DNA from: Eubacteriales bacterium
Lineage (GTDB): Bacteria > Bacillota > Clostridia > Oscillospirales > JAAYXM01
Reading direction: 5' to 3'
Assembly (NCBI GenBank): GCA_045652405.1
Contig: JAZRUF010000107.1
Coordinates: forward strand, 1-60,081
DNA length: 60,081 nucleotides
Positions 35,773 through 52,598 of the stretch are shown here, piece after piece; position 1 is the first letter of the stretch, and each line of letters begins with the position of its first letter. Made by a program: the position numbers and the translations under genes. Under the pieces are notes generated by a model. It was not told the origin of the DNA. It searched no databases and was given only the letters and a program-made list of their open reading frames with translations.

Positions 35773-36993
35773 ATGAAGAGACCGGAGCTTTTGTCACCGG
35801 CAGGGGATAGAGAAAAGCTTGAAACCGCGCTTGCATACGGCGCAGACGCGGTATACCTGGCAGGCGAGGAATTTGGAATGCGCTGTGCATCTGAAAACTT
35901 TTCGGAGGATAGCATCGCAGACGCGATAGCGTATGCCCATAAACGAGGGGCGGCGGTATATGTTACTTTAAATACAATGCCGCGCAACGATGAAGTTGCG
36001 CGGCTACCCGCATTTCTTGAGGTGCTTGAGAGTGCAGGTGCAGATGCGGTCATTGTCGCAGATATAGGTGTTATGACGGCGGTTAAAAAATACGCGCCGA
36101 ATGTTAAAATTCATATAAGCACTCAGGCAAGCATTGTAAATTATCAAAGTGCGAATGCGTGGCATGAGCTGGGCGCAGACCGTATAGTTTTAGCGCGTGA
36201 ACTCAGTCTTGACGAAATTCGCGAGATACGTGCAAAAACTCCTGCCAAGCTTGAGATAGAGACGTTTGTGCACGGAGCAATGTGTATGTCCTACTCCGGG
36301 CGGTGTATGCTCTCAACATATATGACCGGGCGTGACTCTAACCGGGGACGCTGTGCTCAACCTTGCCGGTGGAAATATGCGGTTGTAGAAGAAAAACGTC
36401 CGGGCGAGTATTATGAAATTTGCGAGGATGGAAAAGGTACGTACATATTCAACTCAAAGGATATGTGCATGATTGAGCATATCCCTGAGCTTATTGATGC
36501 GGGGATTGACAGCTTTAAGATAGAAGGCCGCGTCAAATCTGCATTTTACAATGCGACGATAACAAATGCCTACAGAATGGCGATTGACTCATATCTGGAA
36601 TGTCCGGAAAAATGGAATCCCAAGGGTCCGTGGTCAGAGGAGGTTCACAAGGTAAGCCATCGCGAATACTTTACCGGTTTTTATTTTAGAGAAACACCCA
36701 GCGAGTATCACAGGGACTCGATGTATATTCGTGACTGGGATGTTGCAGCGGTTGTTTTGGATTGTGATGTCGATGGAAAAGCGCGCATAAGCGTGCGAAA
36801 TCGCTTTTTTAGCGGGGATGATTTGGAACTTCTTGAGCCCAAAAAGGAAACATGCGCGTTTAAAGCCGAGCTTTTTGATTTGGACGGTGAGCCGCTTGAG
36901 GTTGCGCGCCATGCCAAGATGGAAGCGCATATAACCTTGCCGCGCCAAGCAGTAGCGGGCGCAATGCTCAGAGTAAGACGTGGCGAGGAATGA
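35773..36993 (+). CDS. U32 family peptidase (YrrN/YrrO / TrhP-like)
   Basis: Has PELLSPAG at the N-terminus and the E.F.HGA.C..YSG.C signature. Confidence 0.85.
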   Translation: MKRPELLSPAGDREKLETALAYGADAVYLAGEEFGMRCASENFSEDSIADAIAYAHKRGAAVYVTLNTMPRNDEVARLPAFLEVLESAGADAVIVADIGVMTAVKKYAPNVKIHISTQASIVNYQSANAWHELGADRIVLARELSLDEIREIRAKTPAKLEIETFVHGAMCMSYSGRCMLSTYMTGRDSNRGRCAQPCRWKYAVVEEKRPGEYYEICEDGKGTYIFNSKDMCMIEHIPELIDAGIDSFKIEGRVKSAFYNATITNAYRMAIDSYLECPEKWNPKGPWSEEVHKVSHREYFTGFYFRETPSEYHRDSMYIRDWDVAAVVLDCDVDGKARISVRNRFFSGDDLELLEPKKETCAFKAELFDLDGEPLEVARHAKMEAHITLPRQAVAGAMLRVRRGEE

Positions 36994-37898
36994 ACAGAGT
37001 AATTAAACACTGCGTCACAGCGGCGCAGGATGGCTCTTTTTTGCGCGATTTGCTAAGACGTGAGATTTCTATATCCGCAAAGCTACTTGCGAGGATAAAA
37101 CGCACTGCGGGCGGAATAACATTGAACGGAGAATCTGTACATGTCAATGTGCGGGTAAAACAAGGGGATATTATCAAAGTTGTAATTGAAAACAATGAAA
37201 GCGCATGTGCAAATCTTATCCCTGTGCCCGGAAAGCTTGATATTTACTATGAGGATGAAGATGTCCTTGTAATAAATAAACCGGCTGGGATACCGGTTCA
37301 ACCCGCCATAGGTGCACCTGAAGGTGCGTTGGGGAATATAGTTGTCTGGCACTATGCTCAAAAAGGCGAAAATGTGATTTTCAGACCTGTTAACAGACTT
37401 GATAGCGGTACATCCGGTCTTATGGCTGTGGCAAAGAACAGCCATGTGCATACCGCACTCATAAAGACGCTGCATACTGGGCAGTTTAAGCGTAAGTACC
37501 GCGCGATAGTACACGGTAGATTTAGCCGAGAGTGCGGTAGTGTAGAAGCTCCTATTTGCAGAGTGGAAGGCTCGGTGCTTAAAAGGATGGTTCATCCGGA
37601 TGGGAAGTGGGCTAAAACGAATTATCGCGTTCTCGAAGAAATCGGGGATTGCAGCCTTATTGAGCTTGAACTTATGAGTGGGAGAACTCATCAGATCCGC
37701 GTGCATATGTCACATATAGGTCATCCGCTTGTCGGCGATTTTTTGTACGGAATAGAAGAGGTGGAAGTAATAGGAAGATTTGCGCTTCACTCTGCAGAAA
37801 TGAGGTTTACTCATCCTATTTCGAGCGTAGAGATTATCTTAAAATCCGATTTACCCGAGGATATGTGTGATGCAATGAGAAAAATCAGCAGTATCTGA
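36990..37898 (+). CDS. RluA family pseudouridine synthase
   Basis: S4-like N-terminus, the HRLD-type motif (NRLDSGTSGL), and GRTHQIR. Confidence 0.9.
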   Translation: MNRVIKHCVTAAQDGSFLRDLLRREISISAKLLARIKRTAGGITLNGESVHVNVRVKQGDIIKVVIENNESACANLIPVPGKLDIYYEDEDVLVINKPAGIPVQPAIGAPEGALGNIVVWHYAQKGENVIFRPVNRLDSGTSGLMAVAKNSHVHTALIKTLHTGQFKRKYRAIVHGRFSRECGSVEAPICRVEGSVLKRMVHPDGKWAKTNYRVLEEIGDCSLIELELMSGRTHQIRVHMSHIGHPLVGDFLYGIEEVEVIGRFALHSAEMRFTHPISSVEIILKSDLPEDMCDAMRKISSI

Positions 37899-37938: not shown

Positions 37939-37967
37939 TTGACAATCAGCTCGGAAATCTCTATAAT
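37939..37967 (+). promoter_or_regulatory. consensus sigmaA promoter TTGACA-17-TATAAT
   Basis: An exact hexamer pair lies about 20 nt upstream of tRNA-Pro. Confidence 0.8.
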
Positions 37968-37986: not shown

Positions 37987-38063
37987 CGGGTTGTGGCTCA
38001 GTTTGGTAGAGCGCTGCGTTCGGGACGCAGAGGCCGCAGGTTCAAATCCTGTCAACCCGACCA
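37987..38063 (+). tRNA. tRNA-Pro (anticodon CGG), CCA encoded
   Basis: The cloverleaf folds by hand. Acceptor is CGGGTTG/CAACCCG, anticodon arm is CTGCG-ttCGGga-CGCAG, and T-arm is GCAGG-ttcaaat-CCTGT. Confidence 0.95.
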
Positions 38064-38067
38064 AAAT

Positions 38068-38103
38068 AAAGGAATCTCGAAAACCGAGGTTCCTTTGTTT
38101 TTT
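38068..38103 (+). terminator. intrinsic terminator of tRNA-Pro
   Basis: AAAGGAATCTCG-aaaac-CGAGGTTCCTTT followed by GTTTTTT. Confidence 0.85.
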
Positions 38104-38108
38104 GTTTA

Positions 38109-38270
38109 GATTGGGAGGATTTGAACCTTAAGAAGGCATGCGGAGAAAAGCAAAATACTCCGGTGGAGTGTTTTGCCGACGCATGGTGCGAAGACGGGTA
38201 CTGAGCGGTTAAACCGCTCGGTCGTCAAGCAAATAAGACGCGAAGCGGCTGTATCCTGTCAACCCGACCA
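38109..38270 (+). ncRNA. tRNA-3'-end-linked structured element, copy 1 (unclassified candidate ncRNA or miniature element)
   Basis: 5' arm 38116-38128 is the reverse complement of the tRNA-Pro T-arm (13/13). Hairpin A is 38151-38175 and the TGGTGCG box is 38184-38190. The bulged hairpin B GACG-GGT-ACTG...CGGT-CGTC is 38193-38226, and hairpin C (GAA loop) is 38236-38250. The tail 38253-38270 is identical to the last 18 nt of tRNA-Pro. Confidence 0.55.
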
Positions 38271-38274
38271 AAAT

Positions 38275-38310
38275 AAAGGAATCTCGTAAAACGAGGTTCC
38301 TTTGTTTTTT
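38275..38310 (+). terminator. intrinsic terminator (near-duplicate of 38068-38103)
   Basis: It has the same stem as the tRNA-Pro terminator, with 2 substitutions at the loop edge, followed by a T-tract. Confidence 0.8.
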
Positions 38311-38315
38311 GTTTA

Positions 38316-38338
38316 GATTGGGAGGATTTGAACCTTAA
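38316..38338 (+). repeat. truncated second copy of the element 5' arm
   Basis: GATTGGGAGGATTTGAACCTTAA repeats 38109-38131 exactly and then diverges. It belongs to an 86-bp direct repeat (38046-38131 versus 38253-38338). Confidence 0.85.
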
Positions 38339-38345
38339 ACAATAG

Positions 38346-38381
38346 GGAAAAAGAGAAACTCTCGTGAGAGTTTCTCTTTTT
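38346..38381. terminator. bidirectional hairpin terminator (serves the minus-strand CNNM gene)
   Basis: AGAGAAACTCTC/GAGAGTTTCTCT stem flanked by an A-tract and a T-tract. Confidence 0.8.
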
Positions 38382-38384
38382 CGT

Positions 38385-40088: not shown

Positions 40089-40165
40089 GCGCTCGTAGCT
40101 CAGCTGGATAGAGTGACTGGCTACGAACCAGTAGGTCAGGGGTTCGAGTCCCTTCGGGCGCGCCA
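40089..40165 (+). tRNA. tRNA-Arg (anticodon ACG), CCA encoded
   Basis: Acceptor is GCGCTCG/CGGGCGC, anticodon arm is ACTGG-ctACGaa-CCAGT, and T-arm is AGGGG-ttcgagt-CCCTT. Confidence 0.95.
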
Positions 40166-40197: not shown

Positions 40198-40216
40198 GTT
40201 TTGTTTTGTAAATGTC

Positions 40217-40378
40217 AGGAAAGGGACTCGAACCCTGAGAGGGCACGAACCGTGAAGCAAAACAGTCCGGTGGACTGTTTTGTAGGTGAGTGGTGCGCAG
40301 ACGGGTACTGAAAGGCAAAGCCTTTCGGTCGTCAAGCAGTGCGGTTGCAAAGCAATCGTTGTCCCTTCGGGCGCGCCA
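40217..40378 (+). ncRNA. tRNA-3'-end-linked structured element, copy 2
   Basis: 5' arm 40221-40235 is the reverse complement of the tRNA-Arg T-arm (15/15). Hairpin A is 40258-40282, the TGGTGCG box is 40291-40297 and hairpin B is 40300-40333. Hairpin C (AAA loop) is 40342-40358. The tail 40361-40378 is identical to the last 18 nt of tRNA-Arg. Confidence 0.55.
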
Positions 40379-47092: not shown

Positions 47093-47179
47093 GCGGATAT
47101 GGCGGAATCGGCAGACGCGCTAGATTCAGGTTCTAGTCGGGGCAACTCGGTGGAGGTTCAAGTCCTCTTATCCGCACCA
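47093..47179 (+). tRNA. tRNA-Leu (anticodon CAG), type II, CCA encoded
   Basis: Acceptor is GCGGATA/TATCCGC, anticodon arm is CTAGA-ttCAGgt-TCTAG. It has a long variable arm and the T-arm GGAGG-ttcaagt-CCTCT. Confidence 0.95.
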
Positions 47180-47214: not shown

Positions 47215-47218
47215 CTTT

Positions 47219-47375
47219 AAAAGAGGACTTGAATCTTAAGAAGGCAACGAGCGTACAAAAAACGATTCATAATCGTTTTTAGCGAAGTTGGTGCGCAGAC
47301 GGGTACTGAAAGGCGCTGCCTTTAGGTCGTCAAGCAAGTAAGACGCGAAGCGACTGTGTCCTCTTATTCGCACCA
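47219..47375 (+). ncRNA. tRNA-3'-end-linked structured element, copy 3
   Basis: 5' arm 47221-47236 is the reverse complement of the tRNA-Leu T-arm (15/16). Hairpin A, at 47258-47280, has a completely different stem sequence from the other copies. The TGGTGCG box is 47289-47295, hairpin B is 47298-47331 and hairpin C (GAA loop) is 47341-47355. The tail 47358-47375 matches 17/18 of the tRNA-Leu(CAG) 3' end. Confidence 0.55.
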
Positions 47376-52318: not shown

Positions 52319-52402
52319 GCGAGTGTGCTGGAACTGGCAGACAGGCACGTTTGAGGGGCGTGTGCTTATGGCGTACGGGTTCAAGTCCCGTCACTCGCAC
52401 CA
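52319..52402 (+). tRNA. tRNA-Leu (anticodon GAG), type II, CCA encoded
   Basis: Acceptor is GCGAGTG/CACTCGC, anticodon arm is CACGT-ttGAGgg-GCGTG. It has a long variable arm and the T-arm ACGGG-ttcaagt-CCCGT. Confidence 0.9.
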
Positions 52403-52437: not shown

Positions 52438-52450
52438 ATTTTATGATATC

Positions 52451-52598
52451 AGAAGGGACTTGAAGCCTAAGAGGGTTTTTGCGTAAAACAAAACAGTCCG
52501 GTGGACTGTTTTGTAGCAAAAAGGTGCGAAGACGGGTACTGCAAAGCGGTCGTCGAGCAAATAGTATGCGAAGCATACGTGTCCCGTCACTCGCACCA
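52451..52598 (+). ncRNA. tRNA-3'-end-linked structured element, copy 4
   Basis: 5' arm 52455-52464 is the reverse complement of the T-loop and T-stem of tRNA-Leu(GAG) (10/10, with partial matches beyond). Hairpin A is 52489-52513 and the GGTGCGA box is 52523-52529. Hairpin B, at 52531-52554, is minimal (ACTGC-aaa-GCGGT). Hairpin C (GAA loop) is 52564-52578. The tail 52581-52598 is identical to the last 18 nt of the tRNA. Confidence 0.55.

What the first reader, a model, noticed from the sequence alone, without database searches (positions are those of the whole stretch)
38046..38338. Copy 1 (tRNA-Pro): 86-bp direct repeat makes a 1.4-unit tandem (tRNA 3' end - terminator - 5' arm | core | tRNA 3' end - terminator - truncated 5' arm)
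38046-38131 and 38253-38338 are 84/86 identical. The two differences are at the edge of the terminator loop. The repeat spans the last 18 nt of tRNA-Pro, its terminator and the first 23 nt of the element (GATTGGGAGGATTTGAACCTTAA). The period is 207 bp. After the second 5' arm the sequence breaks off into the terminator of the convergent CNNM gene. This looks like a tandem duplication or slipped recombination of a unit (terminator + element). Alternatively it could be the attL/attR-like flanks of a tiny insertion.
Basis: seen in the sequence. Interest (0 to 1): 0.7.

Follow-up and report, generated by a model that had tools for sequence, protein, structure and literature searches.

The report
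tRNA-matched structured element, 1.4 units
The 86-base repeat is real. It is the edge of an apparently undescribed ~160-base folded element that follows tRNA and tmRNA genes in a group of gut Clostridia, and each copy carries an antisense piece and an exact 18-base copy of its own tRNA's 3' end.

Summary
Confirmed: 38046-38131 and 38253-38338 are 84/86 identical with a 207-nt period. This is not a one-off slip.

All four tRNA genes in the window are followed by the same element. Its parts, in order:
- terminator
- 5' arm, the reverse complement of that tRNA's nt 54-63/66
- conserved five-helix core
- exact copy of that tRNA's last 18 nt (nt 59 to CCA)
- terminator

So the tRNA 3' end, and usually the terminator, are repeated at every copy by design. 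Copy 1 additionally keeps the spacer plus 23 nt of a second unit that is otherwise missing.

A covariance model finds 83 copies in 74 loci. All are from Oscillospiraceae-type gut and rumen genomes, behind at least 12 tRNA identities and tmRNA. Covariation is strong. There is no Rfam, phage, plasmid or literature match.

Orthologous loci show the arrangement is old. The element is 99.4% and 95.6% conserved where flanking genes are 80-88%. The second arm is intact here, decayed in one relative and absent in another. A more distant relative has an empty site.

Best reading (about 0.5): a selected RNA carried in the tRNA's extended trailer, with arrays made and trimmed by repeat recombination. Main rival (about 0.25): a tRNA-targeted mobile DNA. 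Function is unknown.

The parts
37939..37967 (+). Promoter of tRNA-Pro (TTGACA, 17-nt spacer, TATAAT). It is the only promoter-like site near the array.
37987..38063 (+). tRNA-Pro(cgg) with encoded CCA
38046..38131 (+). Repeat copy 1: tRNA nt 59-76, terminator A, spacer and the first 23 nt of the element
38063..38101 (+). Intrinsic terminator A. Its stem begins at the last A of CCA.
38109..38270 (+). Element copy 1, full length (arm, core, tail). Covariance-model score 141 bits, E = 2.6e-34.
38110..38125 (+). 5' arm. 38111-38120 pairs with tail nt 59-68 (helix P1). 38121-38125 (TTGAA) is the reverse complement of T-loop nt 54-58.
38126..38136 (+). P2 mini-hairpin CCTT-AAG-AAGG
38137..38185 (+). 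P3 (CATGCG/CGCATG) enclosing hairpin 1, which has the loop CCGGTGG
38187..38231 (+). Invariant P4/P5 domain TGCGAAGACGGGTACTG-hairpin 2-CGGTCGTCAAGCA, with an invariant U.G pair and a GGT bulge
38236..38252 (+). P6 hairpin (GACGC-GAA-GCGGC) plus the GT linker
38253..38270 (+). Tail: exact copy of tRNA-Pro nt 59-76, including CCA
38253..38338 (+). Repeat copy 2: tail, terminator B, spacer and the vestigial second arm
38270..38308 (+). Intrinsic terminator B
38316..38338 (+). Vestigial start of a second unit (arm plus the P2 5' strand). It is identical to 38109-38131, decayed in L049 and absent in L078.
38347..38382 (.). Bidirectional terminator shared with the convergent CNNM gene
40216..40378 (+). 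Element copy 2, behind tRNA-Arg(acg) at 40089-40165
47217..47375 (+). Element copy 3, behind tRNA-Leu(cag) at 47093-47179
52448..52598 (+). Element copy 4, behind tRNA-Leu(gag) at 52319-52402

Best explanation
The repeat belongs to a family of ~160-nt structured elements that are hard-wired to the tRNA or tmRNA gene they follow.

Shown:
- Each element is made of a 5' arm (reverse complement of the cognate tRNA's T-loop and T-stem 3' strand, nt 54-63/66), a conserved core of five helices, a sense copy of the tRNA's last 18 nt (nt 59-CCA), and usually an intrinsic terminator.
- Because of this layout, the tRNA 3' end, and in about half of the loci the terminator too, is a direct repeat at every copy.
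- Copy 1 also keeps the spacer and 23 nt of a second unit whose remainder is gone. The 1.4-unit pattern is therefore one unit plus a vestige.
- The locus is old and under purifying selection.

Inferred mechanism:
- The element acts as RNA on the tRNA strand. It has no promoter of its own, so it would be made when RNA polymerase reads through the tRNA's first terminator.
- The arm pairs with the tail to close the fold (helix P1).
- Alternatively the arm can pair with the tRNA's own T-loop and 3' strand. The tail copy then takes over pairing with the acceptor 5' strand. This gives a two-state RNA tied to one tRNA.
- Extra units arise by recombination between the repeated tail-terminator segments and are later lost by deletion, leaving left-hand stumps.
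- Gene conversion keeps neighbouring repeats, and the cores within a genome, alike.

What the RNA does for the cell is not known.
For: Family and layout:
- There are four copies in the window, one per tRNA, and no others.
- The core pattern hits 66 genome loci, all Clostridia genomes assembled from metagenomes. The covariance model finds 83 copies in 74 loci.
- The tRNA lies on the same strand, ending 110-135 nt upstream of the core.
- The tail equals the tRNA's last 18 nt exactly in 36 cases and with one mismatch in 5. One of these follows tmRNA. The median period is 204.5 nt.
- The arm matches the reverse complement of nt 54-63 in about 100% of copies (the copies were selected on that match) and tracks the variable position R57 in 57 of 58.

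Structure:
- RNAalifold gives 25 pairs, 12 of them with compensatory changes.
- 97.8% of cells are paired, against 30-51% when partners are slid. There are 141 double-change cells against 36.7 +/- 5.5 in shuffles, exceeded in 0 of 500.
- The plus strand folds at -62.5 kcal/mol (z = -4.8), the minus strand at -50.7 (z = -3.0). G.U pairs, including an invariant one, point to the tRNA strand.

Selection and age:
- The element is 99.4% identical to L049 and 95.6% to L078. The neighbouring RluA-family pseudouridine synthase CDS (36990-37898) is 86.8% and 79.9%, and the CNNM CDS is 88.0% and 84.1%.
- Changes between orthologs are compensatory in hairpin 2 (L078), and in hairpin 1 and P3 (L016).
- The element persists although it is flanked by direct repeats that should favour its deletion.

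Vestige and turnover:
- The second arm is decayed in L049 and absent in L078.
- At the tRNA-Gln locus, L028 has a second unit, L012 has only ~17 nt of its arm, and L013 and L070 have nothing.
- Full tandem arrays occur in L003, L037 and L060.

Exchange between copies:
- Core identity averages 0.77 within a genome between different tRNAs, against 0.65 background. The shared stretch is confined to P3-P5.

Transcription logic:
- The only promoter is the tRNA's, and a terminator stands on each side of the element.

Two-state pairing:
- In the minimum-energy fold of the read-through transcript, acceptor nt 1-7 pair with the second tail, and the T-arm plus first tail pair with the arm, in copies 1, 3 and 4. 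This fold is 1.5-16 kcal/mol better than separate folds.
Against: - No expression data were available, so RNA cannot be told apart from folded single-stranded DNA. Many loops are C-GAA-G or C-AAA-G triloops (GCGAAGC), which from general knowledge are unusually stable in DNA.
- A purely host-serving RNA does not explain how one core reached 12 or more tRNA identities plus tmRNA, each time with a cognate arm and tail and a tail boundary fixed at nt 59.
- Presence/absence between species (L079 is empty), arrays, chimeras (L028), stumps that always keep the left part, and several other core types with the same arm/tail logic look like mobile-element behaviour.
- The swapped-3'-end fold is a thermodynamic prediction. 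It ignores co-transcriptional folding and tRNA tertiary structure, and it fails for copy 2.
- Three loci (L026, L062, L063) have a Met-type element behind a different CAT-anticodon tRNA.
Confidence: 0.5

Rival explanations
1. A non-autonomous mobile DNA element aimed at the universal T-loop of tRNA and tmRNA genes. It would be moved in trans by a site-specific recombinase, possibly acting on a folded single strand as with integron attC sites or CTX-phage. The circular unit (tail, terminator, arm, core) would integrate at nt 58|59, carrying a replacement 3' end so that the tRNA stays intact. The arm together with the tRNA 3' strand would rebuild a duplex copy of the target site.
For: - Exclusive association with tRNA and tmRNA 3' ends, the classical integration targets.
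- The direct repeat starts in the T-loop.
- Tandem arrays and an empty site in L079.
- Several core types share the same flanks.
- Cores are near-identical at different tRNAs of one genome.
- From T-loop to arm the region forms one long imperfect palindrome centred on the terminator.
- DNA-type GNA triloops.
Against: - There is no recombinase or any ORF in or next to any copy. The window neighbours are housekeeping genes.
- No copies were found in phage or plasmid collections.
- Orthologous copies are more conserved than flanking genes and carry compensatory changes. This is not expected for inert inserted copies.
- Within-genome identity stops before P2, P6, arm and tail, which fits gene conversion better than transposition.
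- The second site, in front of tail 2, lacks the T-loop half.
- The terminator inside the unit often equals the host terminator.
Confidence: 0.25
2. A retro-type element. The nicked tRNA gene, or the tRNA 3' end, would prime copying of a unit-length, possibly circular, template through the 18-nt tail acting as a primer-binding site. Synthesis would start right after CCA and often abort, leaving partial units.
For: - Units begin immediately after a CCA and end in CCA.
- The copied tRNA segment is exactly 18 nt (nt 59-76). From general knowledge this is the length of retroviral primer-binding sites and of tRF-3a.
- Partial units always retain the left part, 7 to about 75 nt.
Against: - No reverse transcriptase gene is nearby.
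- The structure and G.U pairs are on the tRNA-sense strand, whereas the template would have to be antisense.
- The arm copies through position 58, so there is no stop there.
- The tRNA-Gln locus series fits deletion of a former unit.
- The same conservation argument applies as for the mobile-DNA rival.
Confidence: 0.07
3. Remnants (attL/attR scars) of degraded genomic islands or prophages that once integrated into these tRNA genes.
For: tRNA 3' fragments typical of island integration do occur upstream of some elements (L016, L025, L037).
Against: The same 110-nt covarying core lies between the repeats at 12 or more different tRNA identities. Scars of unrelated islands would not share it. In the three loci cited, the fragments lie upstream of an otherwise normal element.
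Confidence: 0.03
4. A plain local tandem duplication by slippage with no functional meaning, or an assembly artefact.
For: There are 86-bp repeats 207 bp apart. Contigs of three other assemblies break at this tRNA.
Against: The same architecture is found in independent assemblies of three species and at about 80 other sites. The unit is conserved and covaries.
Confidence: 0.02

Closest known systems
tRNA/tmRNA-targeting integrative elements (tyrosine-integrase islands and prophages with attL/attR)
   Same: The insert sits at the 3' end of tRNA and tmRNA genes. It is flanked by a direct repeat that begins in the T-loop and restores an intact tRNA. Tandem accretion occurs.
   Different: There is no integrase or cargo, and only ~120-140 nt lie between the repeats. 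One core serves at least 12 tRNA identities. The repeat often extends through the terminator. The insert carries an inverted copy of the T-loop region and evolves as a structured, covarying unit.
sRNAs from tRNA 3' external transcribed spacers (e.g. 3'ETS-leuZ of E. coli; from general knowledge), and large ncRNAs often found next to tRNAs (GOLLD, ROOL; PMC5737381)
   Same: Non-coding and on the tRNA strand, with no promoter of its own and positioned in the trailer of a tRNA operon.
   Different: Those RNAs have no segment antisense to, or copied from, their tRNA. This element lies beyond a full terminator and recurs behind many tRNAs of one genome. No Rfam family matches.
Group I intron / trans-splicing ribozyme layout: internal guide sequence, core, 3' exon (from general knowledge)
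   Same: The order is the same. A 5' guide is complementary to the sequence spanning a junction (nt 54-58 | 59-66), a structured core follows, and then comes the sequence downstream of that junction.
   Different: The core is ~110 nt with no group I features and no Rfam hit. There is no conserved base at the would-be splice site (T, C or others precede the tail). There is no G.U at the junction. No catalysis has been shown.
Primer-binding sites of LTR retroelements and 18-nt tRF-3a fragments (from general knowledge)
   Same: Exactly the last 18 nt of a tRNA, from nt 59 to CCA.
   Different: Here the copy is in the tRNA's sense on the structured strand. There are no LTRs, no reverse transcriptase and no polypurine tract.
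Integron attC sites and CTX-phage attP: folded single-stranded DNA recombination sites (PMC5737381 for attC found as 'RNA motifs')
   Same: An imperfect long palindrome, arrays of units, and a structure detectable by covariation.
   Different: There are no conserved AAC/GTT boxes and no IntI or Xer context. The palindrome arms are tRNA-derived, and a multi-helix core lies between sites.

Membership tests
Integrase-mediated tRNA-gene insertion (attL/attR) | Direct repeat of the tRNA 3' segment on both sides of the insert | tested here: met
   18-nt to 86-nt repeats
Integrase-mediated tRNA-gene insertion (attL/attR) | Integrase or recombinase gene in or next to the insert | tested here: not met
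   121 nt lie between the repeats. There is no conserved ORF, and the neighbours are YceG, peptidase U32, an RluA-family pseudouridine synthase, CNNM and GlnA.
Integrase-mediated tRNA-gene insertion (attL/attR) | One element type targets one tRNA gene, or very few | tested here: not met
   The same core lies behind Pro, Arg, Leu, Ser, Ala, Glu, Gln, Lys, Trp, His, Met, Thr and Val tRNAs and behind tmRNA.
MITE / insertion-sequence derivative | Constant terminal inverted repeats and a short target-site duplication of fixed length | tested here: not met
   The only inverted repeat is arm against tail, and it changes with the tRNA. The duplicated flank varies from 18 to 86 nt or more.
IS200/IS605 relics and TnpB/IscB guide RNAs | Match to the IS605-orfB or HEARO RNA models, or an adjacent tnpA/tnpB/iscB gene | tested here: not met
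   No such Rfam hit even at E <= 10. No such genes are present.
Known self-cleaving or self-splicing ribozymes (group I/II, hammerhead, twister, HDV-like and others) | Match to a family covariance model | tested here: not met
   Rfam 15 at gathering and E-value thresholds gives only tRNA and chance miRNA-like hairpin hits.
Known self-cleaving or self-splicing ribozymes (group I/II, hammerhead, twister, HDV-like and others) | Catalytic activity | not testable with these tools
   Needs in vitro transcription and cleavage or ligation assays.
tRNA-trailer (3'ETS-type) non-coding RNA | Same strand as the tRNA, downstream of it, with no promoter of its own | tested here: met
tRNA-trailer (3'ETS-type) non-coding RNA | Transcript detected and processed from the tRNA precursor | not testable with these tools
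   No transcriptome data were available.
Integron attC-type folded ssDNA site | Conserved R''/R' boxes (RYYYAAC...GTTRRRY) and an integron integrase nearby | tested here: not met
   These boxes are absent from alignment A2, and no integrase is present.
Retron / DRT-type reverse-transcriptase ncRNA | Reverse transcriptase gene adjacent to the ncRNA | tested here: not met
T-box leader | T-box model match, located upstream of an aminoacyl-tRNA synthetase or amino-acid gene | tested here: not met
   No Rfam T-box hit. The element lies downstream of tRNA genes.
Rfam Gut-1 RNA (RF01706) | Model match at gathering score | tested here: not met
   Gut-1 matches a different, neighbouring repeat element in L017 and L032. 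It matches neither this element nor anything in the window.

The most novel reading that the evidence does not exclude
The element is a tRNA-specific 3'-end exchanger. The arm would act as a guide that holds the cognate tRNA's T-loop (nt 54-58) next to the element's own tail (nt 59-76). The invariant core, alone or with a ligase or nuclease such as RtcB, would then replace the last 18 nt of that tRNA, including its CCA end, with the spare copy. In cis, it would do the same on read-through precursors. This would be a per-tRNA repair or quality-control cartridge with the layout of a trans-splicing ribozyme.
Probability: 0.06. Interest if true: 0.95.

Novelty: categorically new. Interest (0 to 1): 0.72.

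Why it matters
If the family is what it appears to be, a whole clade of gut Clostridia attaches to its tRNA and tmRNA genes a conserved folded module that is individually matched to each tRNA. The match has two parts: an antisense segment to the T-loop and a spare copy of the acceptor 3' strand with CCA. No described RNA class or mobile element has this design.

Two broad outcomes are possible, and both would be new:
- A new layer of tRNA biology, such as processing, surveillance or repair of tRNA 3' ends, or control of read-through transcripts.
- A new way for a tiny element to target the universal T-loop without damaging its host gene.

The family also has practical consequences. It explains assembly breaks and mis-joins at tRNA loci in metagenome-assembled genomes. 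It also gives a sequence handle, covariance model R1, for experiments in cultured relatives of carrier genomes such as Congzhengia minquanensis, once a carrier strain is confirmed.

Tried and rejected
- **Chance or artefact.** Rejected.
- **Known RNA family.** Rfam at gathering threshold and at E <= 10 on the locus, and at gathering on 12 related loci, returned only tRNA, 5S rRNA and Gut-1. The Gut-1 hits belong to a different neighbouring repeat.
- **Phage or plasmid origin.** No real hits. The strict pattern gave 0 matches in IMG/VR. The relaxed pattern gave 7 chance matches inside GC-rich phage ORFs. blastn found nothing in phages or plasmids.
- **Minus-strand tRNA-like gene.** Considered because the reverse complement of the arm looks like a T-arm. 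Rejected because ARAGORN finds nothing there, the acceptor cannot pair, the minus strand folds worse, and the G.U pairs lie on the plus strand.
- **Conserved GGTGCG pairing with the NCCA end (T-box or RNase P style).** Rejected because it is invariant irrespective of the acceptor sequence and lies inside P3/P4.
- **Kink-turn or box C/D reading of the GAA/AA loop.** The pairing register does not fit.
- **Group II intron 5' end (GTGTG) in some spacers.** The element is far too small and has no domain V.
- **Protein partner near variant units.** Only an unannotated 118-aa ORF and Hsp33 lie nearby in L003.
- **Strain-level comparison.** Exact-protein look-ups for the two flanking genes found nothing. 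The promoter 27-mer gave 0 metagenome hits. Orthologs were reached through protein homologs instead.
- **Literature.** Six full-text searches, including searches for the core sequence itself, and two targeted readings found no description.
- **Mirror-symmetry test of arm position.** Only suggestive: the right spacer has a median of 12-13 nt against 11 on the left, with an SD of 4.6.
Full report
**1. The observation**

The window contains one strong direct repeat in this region: 38046-38131 and 38253-38338. It is 86 nt long, 84/86 identical, and the starts are 207 nt apart. The mismatches are at 38080/38287 and 38084/38291, the first and last bases of the terminator loop. In copy 2 these two bases can pair with each other.

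ARAGORN and Rfam place tRNA-Pro(cgg) at 37987-38063, so the repeat begins exactly 18 nt before the CCA end, at tRNA nt 59. The 23-mer that ends the repeat occurs only at 38109 and 38316, where none is expected by chance. Downstream lie a bidirectional terminator (38347-38382) and the convergent CNNM/CorC gene.

**2. What the repeat is part of**

All four tRNA genes of the window are followed by the same arrangement. They are Pro at 37987, Arg at 40089, Leu-cag at 47093 and Leu-gag at 52319. The arrangement, in order:
- an intrinsic terminator whose stem starts at the CCA
- a short spacer
- a 5' arm that is the reverse complement of that tRNA's own T-loop and T-stem 3' strand
- a conserved core containing the invariant GGTGCGNAGACGGGTACTG...CGGTCGTCRAGCA
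- an exact or near-exact copy of that tRNA's last 18 nt
- a second terminator

A covariance model built later finds exactly these four copies in the window, at 138-148 bits; the next best hit scores 11 bits. The duplication of the tRNA 3' end is therefore a built-in feature of the element, not an accident of copy 1. In copies 1, 2 and 4 the terminator is duplicated as well. In copy 3 the two terminators differ. What is special to copy 1 is only that the repeat runs on through the spacer into 23 nt of a second arm (38316-38338).

**3. The family**

The core pattern has no true match in IMG/VR and no blastn match in phage or plasmid collections. It hits 66 loci in the species-representative genome collection and 4 metagenome contigs. 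All 66 genome-collection loci are labelled Clostridia, Oscillospiraceae, Acutalibacteraceae, Congzhengia or Eubacteriales and come from gut or rumen metagenome-assembled genomes; the 4 metagenome contigs carry no organism label. The model finds 83 copies in 74 loci.

Where sequence is available upstream, a tRNA on the same strand ends 110-135 nt before the core. The identities are Pro, Ser, Arg, Ala, Glu, Gln, Lys, Trp, Leu, His, Met, Thr and Val, and in L033 the upstream gene is tmRNA.

The tail equals the last 18 nt of that tRNA or tmRNA exactly in 36 cases and with one mismatch in 5. The period has a median of 204.5 nt and ranges from 189 to 224. The arm equals the reverse complement of nt 54-63 in essentially all copies, though they were selected on that match. 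It follows the variable T-loop base R57 in 57 of 58. Agreement falls to 55-60% at nt 64-66 and to background beyond nt 67.

**4. It is a structured unit on the tRNA strand**

An alignment of 52 distinct elements gives a consensus with these helices:
- P1: arm paired with the tail
- P2: a 4-bp hairpin
- P3: enclosing a long hairpin, often with the loop CCGGTGG or GATA
- P4/P5: an invariant domain with a GAA/AA internal loop, a GGU bulge and an invariant U.G pair
- P6: a hairpin, often GCGAAGC

Of all cells, 97.8% form standard pairs, against 30-51% when partners are slid by 1-3 columns. Double-sided changes number 141, against 36.7 +/- 5.5 in shuffles, a value reached in 0 of 500 shuffles. One caveat applies: covariation in P1 and P2 could partly be inherited from the self-complementary T-arm. 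P3, the hairpins and P6 are independent of the tRNA.

Copy 1 folds at -62.5 kcal/mol (z = -4.8) on the plus strand and at -50.7 (z = -3.0) on the minus strand. No Rfam 15 family matches the core even at E <= 10. Full-text searches, including searches for the core sequence, found no description.

**5. History of this locus**

L049, from another species, is orthologous across the whole region, about 89% identical over 2.8 kb. L078 is a third species. L079 is a more distant relative with the same YceG, peptidase U32, pseudouridine synthase, tRNA-Pro synteny.
- L049 has the same tRNA, terminator A, element, tail and terminator B. Its second arm has decayed, with 6 G/C-to-A/T changes in 25 nt.
- L078 has one unit with a diverged terminator B and no second arm.
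- L079 has only the tRNA and its own terminator: an empty site, with no model hit.

The element itself is 99.4% identical to L049 and 95.6% to L078. The flanking coding sequences are 86.8% and 79.9% (pseudouridine synthase) and 88.0% and 84.1% (CNNM). The few changes in L078 are compensatory in hairpin 2. The ortholog of copy 2 (L016) shows compensatory changes in hairpin 1 and P3.

Both repeat copies of the window share states that differ from both copies of L049 (TTTG against TTTA, GGGAGG against GGAAG), which indicates gene conversion between the two copies.

Taken together, the arrangement predates these species, the element is under purifying selection, the second arm is a vestige, and its perfect identity in the window is secondary.

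**6. Arrays, stumps and relatives of the element**

Full tandem units exist in L003, L037 and L060, and a degenerate second unit in L024. Partial units occur after the last terminator in at least a dozen loci. They always keep the left part, 7 to about 75 nt.

At the tRNA-Gln locus there is a series. L028 has a second, variant unit. L012 has only ~17 nt of its arm. L013 and L070 have nothing. This fits loss of former units.

Other core types use the same arm/tail logic: L054 at 208-440 with the tail starting at nt 54, the second units of L031 and L006/L061, and units in L022, L017 and L057.

Cores at different tRNAs of one genome can be up to 93% identical, while arm, P2, P6 and tail differ. 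Mean core identity is 0.77 within a genome, against 0.65 background and 0.74 for the same tRNA in different genomes. Copies therefore exchange sequence.

Exceptions:
- L028 is an arm(Pro)/tail(Gln) chimera joining two loci.
- In L026, L062 and L063 a Met-type element follows another CAT-anticodon tRNA.
- In L016, L025 and L037 the upstream tRNA is only an island-type 3' fragment.

**7. How it most likely works**

*Shown:* the layout, the cognate matching, the structure, the strand, the conservation, the lack of a promoter of its own (the only promoter-like site is the tRNA's perfect TTGACA-17-TATAAT at 37939-37967), and a terminator on each side.

*Inferred:* the element is RNA made by read-through of terminator A. 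Its fold is closed by the arm pairing with the tail.

In energy models of the whole read-through transcript, the arm prefers to pair with the tRNA's own T-loop and first 3' strand. The acceptor 5' strand (nt 1-7) then pairs with the second tail. This holds in copies 1, 3 and 4 but not in copy 2. The comparison of whole-transcript fold against separate folds:

| Copy | Whole transcript (kcal/mol) | Separate folds (kcal/mol) |
|---|---|---|
| 1 | -152 | -136 |
| 3 | -115 | -103 |
| 4 | -136 | -134 |

This suggests a two-state RNA in which the spare 3' end can stand in for the tRNA's own. The models ignore co-transcriptional folding and tRNA tertiary structure, and the biological output is unknown.

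Repeat recombination, deletion and gene conversion account for the arrays, stumps and identical repeats. I put this reading at about 0.5.

**8. Rivals**

A mobile DNA aimed at the universal T-loop (about 0.25) explains better:
- the spread to many tRNAs
- the empty site
- the arrays
- the several core families
- the DNA-like GNA triloops
- the long palindrome running from T-loop to arm

It lacks any recombinase. It is also hard to square with locus-specific purifying selection and with identity tracts that stop inside the element.

A retro-type mechanism (about 0.07) fits the start right after CCA, the 18-nt length and the left-retaining stumps. It has no reverse transcriptase, and the structure is on the wrong strand.

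Island scars, plain slippage and assembly artefact are contradicted by the shared covarying core and by independent assemblies.

**9. Comparison with known systems and novelty**

The element shares single traits with several known systems:
- integrase att duplications: the repeat starts in the T-loop, and the targets are tRNA and tmRNA
- 3'ETS-type trailer RNAs: position and strand
- trans-splicing ribozymes: the order guide, core, 3' exon
- retroviral primer-binding sites: the 18 nt
- attC sites: folded palindromes in arrays

Each membership test fails on a defining feature (see the membership table). I found no described class that combines a tRNA-specific antisense arm, a tRNA-specific sense tail and a common core. 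I therefore rate the family as categorically new, with the caveat that its function, and even whether it acts as RNA or DNA, remains open.

The specific 1.4-unit repeat is a secondary and fairly ordinary consequence: a vestigial second unit homogenised by gene conversion. Its value is as the entry point to the family.

Noticed in passing
window 40216-40378, 47217-47375, 52448-52598: Three further full copies of the element lie behind tRNA-Arg(acg), tRNA-Leu(cag) and tRNA-Leu(gag). Every tRNA gene in the 60-kb window carries one. Cores within the window are only 53-68% alike and are mosaic: copies 2 and 4 share hairpin 1, and copies 1 and 3 share P6.
   Followed up: yes
window 52319-52402: The Rfam gathering-score scan lists only three tRNAs and misses tRNA-Leu(gag), which ARAGORN finds.
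   Followed up: no
L017 111-185; L032 1121-1196; also L004, L018, L020, L045, L063: A second, iteron-rich repeat element of about 250 nt also sits behind tRNA terminators or behind the tails of the first element. It consists of GTGAAAT units alternating with mini-hairpins, first direct and then inverted, and ends in ...TTGCCA followed by a terminator. Part of it matches Rfam Gut-1 RNA (RF01706), an orphan motif known only from human gut metagenomes.
   Followed up: partly
L033 4394-4947: The element also follows a tmRNA gene, with the arm and 18-nt tail matched to the tmRNA's tRNA-like 3' end.
   Followed up: partly
L054 208-440; L031 1450-1560; L006 6270-6390; L022 (minus strand); L017; L057; L003 5880-6050; L028 1600-1740; L056: Other core types use the same arm/tail design. 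One is a 157-nt-period variant whose tail starts at T54 and pairs with the whole arm. Others are GC-rich variants. Many share a hairpin with the loop CCGGTGG (CCACCGG in one type).
   Followed up: partly
L028 1269-1750: A chimeric element has a tRNA-Pro arm and a tRNA-Gln tail, joining the tRNA-Pro locus to the downstream flank of the tRNA-Gln locus. This is either a real rearrangement by recombination between cores or a mis-join in the metagenome assembly at the repeat.
   Followed up: partly
L026, L062, L063 (and L045): An element with a tRNA-Met-type arm and tail (GTCCCCGAAGATCCACCA) sits behind a different CAT-anticodon tRNA (initiator or Ile2-like), or behind the Gut-1-type element. This is conserved in three genomes. 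In L045 its cognate tRNA-Met lies 3 kb upstream, and the element's P2 carries a 60-nt insertion.
   Followed up: partly
L016, L025, L037, L019, L048: Upstream of some elements there is only a 3' fragment of the tRNA, running from the anticodon loop or covering the last ~12 nt, as left by genomic-island integration. The element stays with the displaced fragment.
   Followed up: no
L080, L081, L082: Three independent assemblies of close relatives break at or just upstream of the tRNA-Pro gene of this locus (L081 and L082 inside it, L080 in its promoter). The break may be caused by the repeats.
   Followed up: no
window 38063-38125 and all copies: From the T-loop to the arm, the sequence forms one long imperfect palindrome centred on the terminator loop (29-nt arms, 79% complementary in copy 1). 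The spacer between terminator and arm has a median of 12-13 nt, roughly mirroring the 11 nt between T-stem and terminator.
   Followed up: partly
L016 (ortholog of window copy 2): The terminator B hairpin behind the tail is deleted, so the element abuts the glnA promoter region directly.
   Followed up: no
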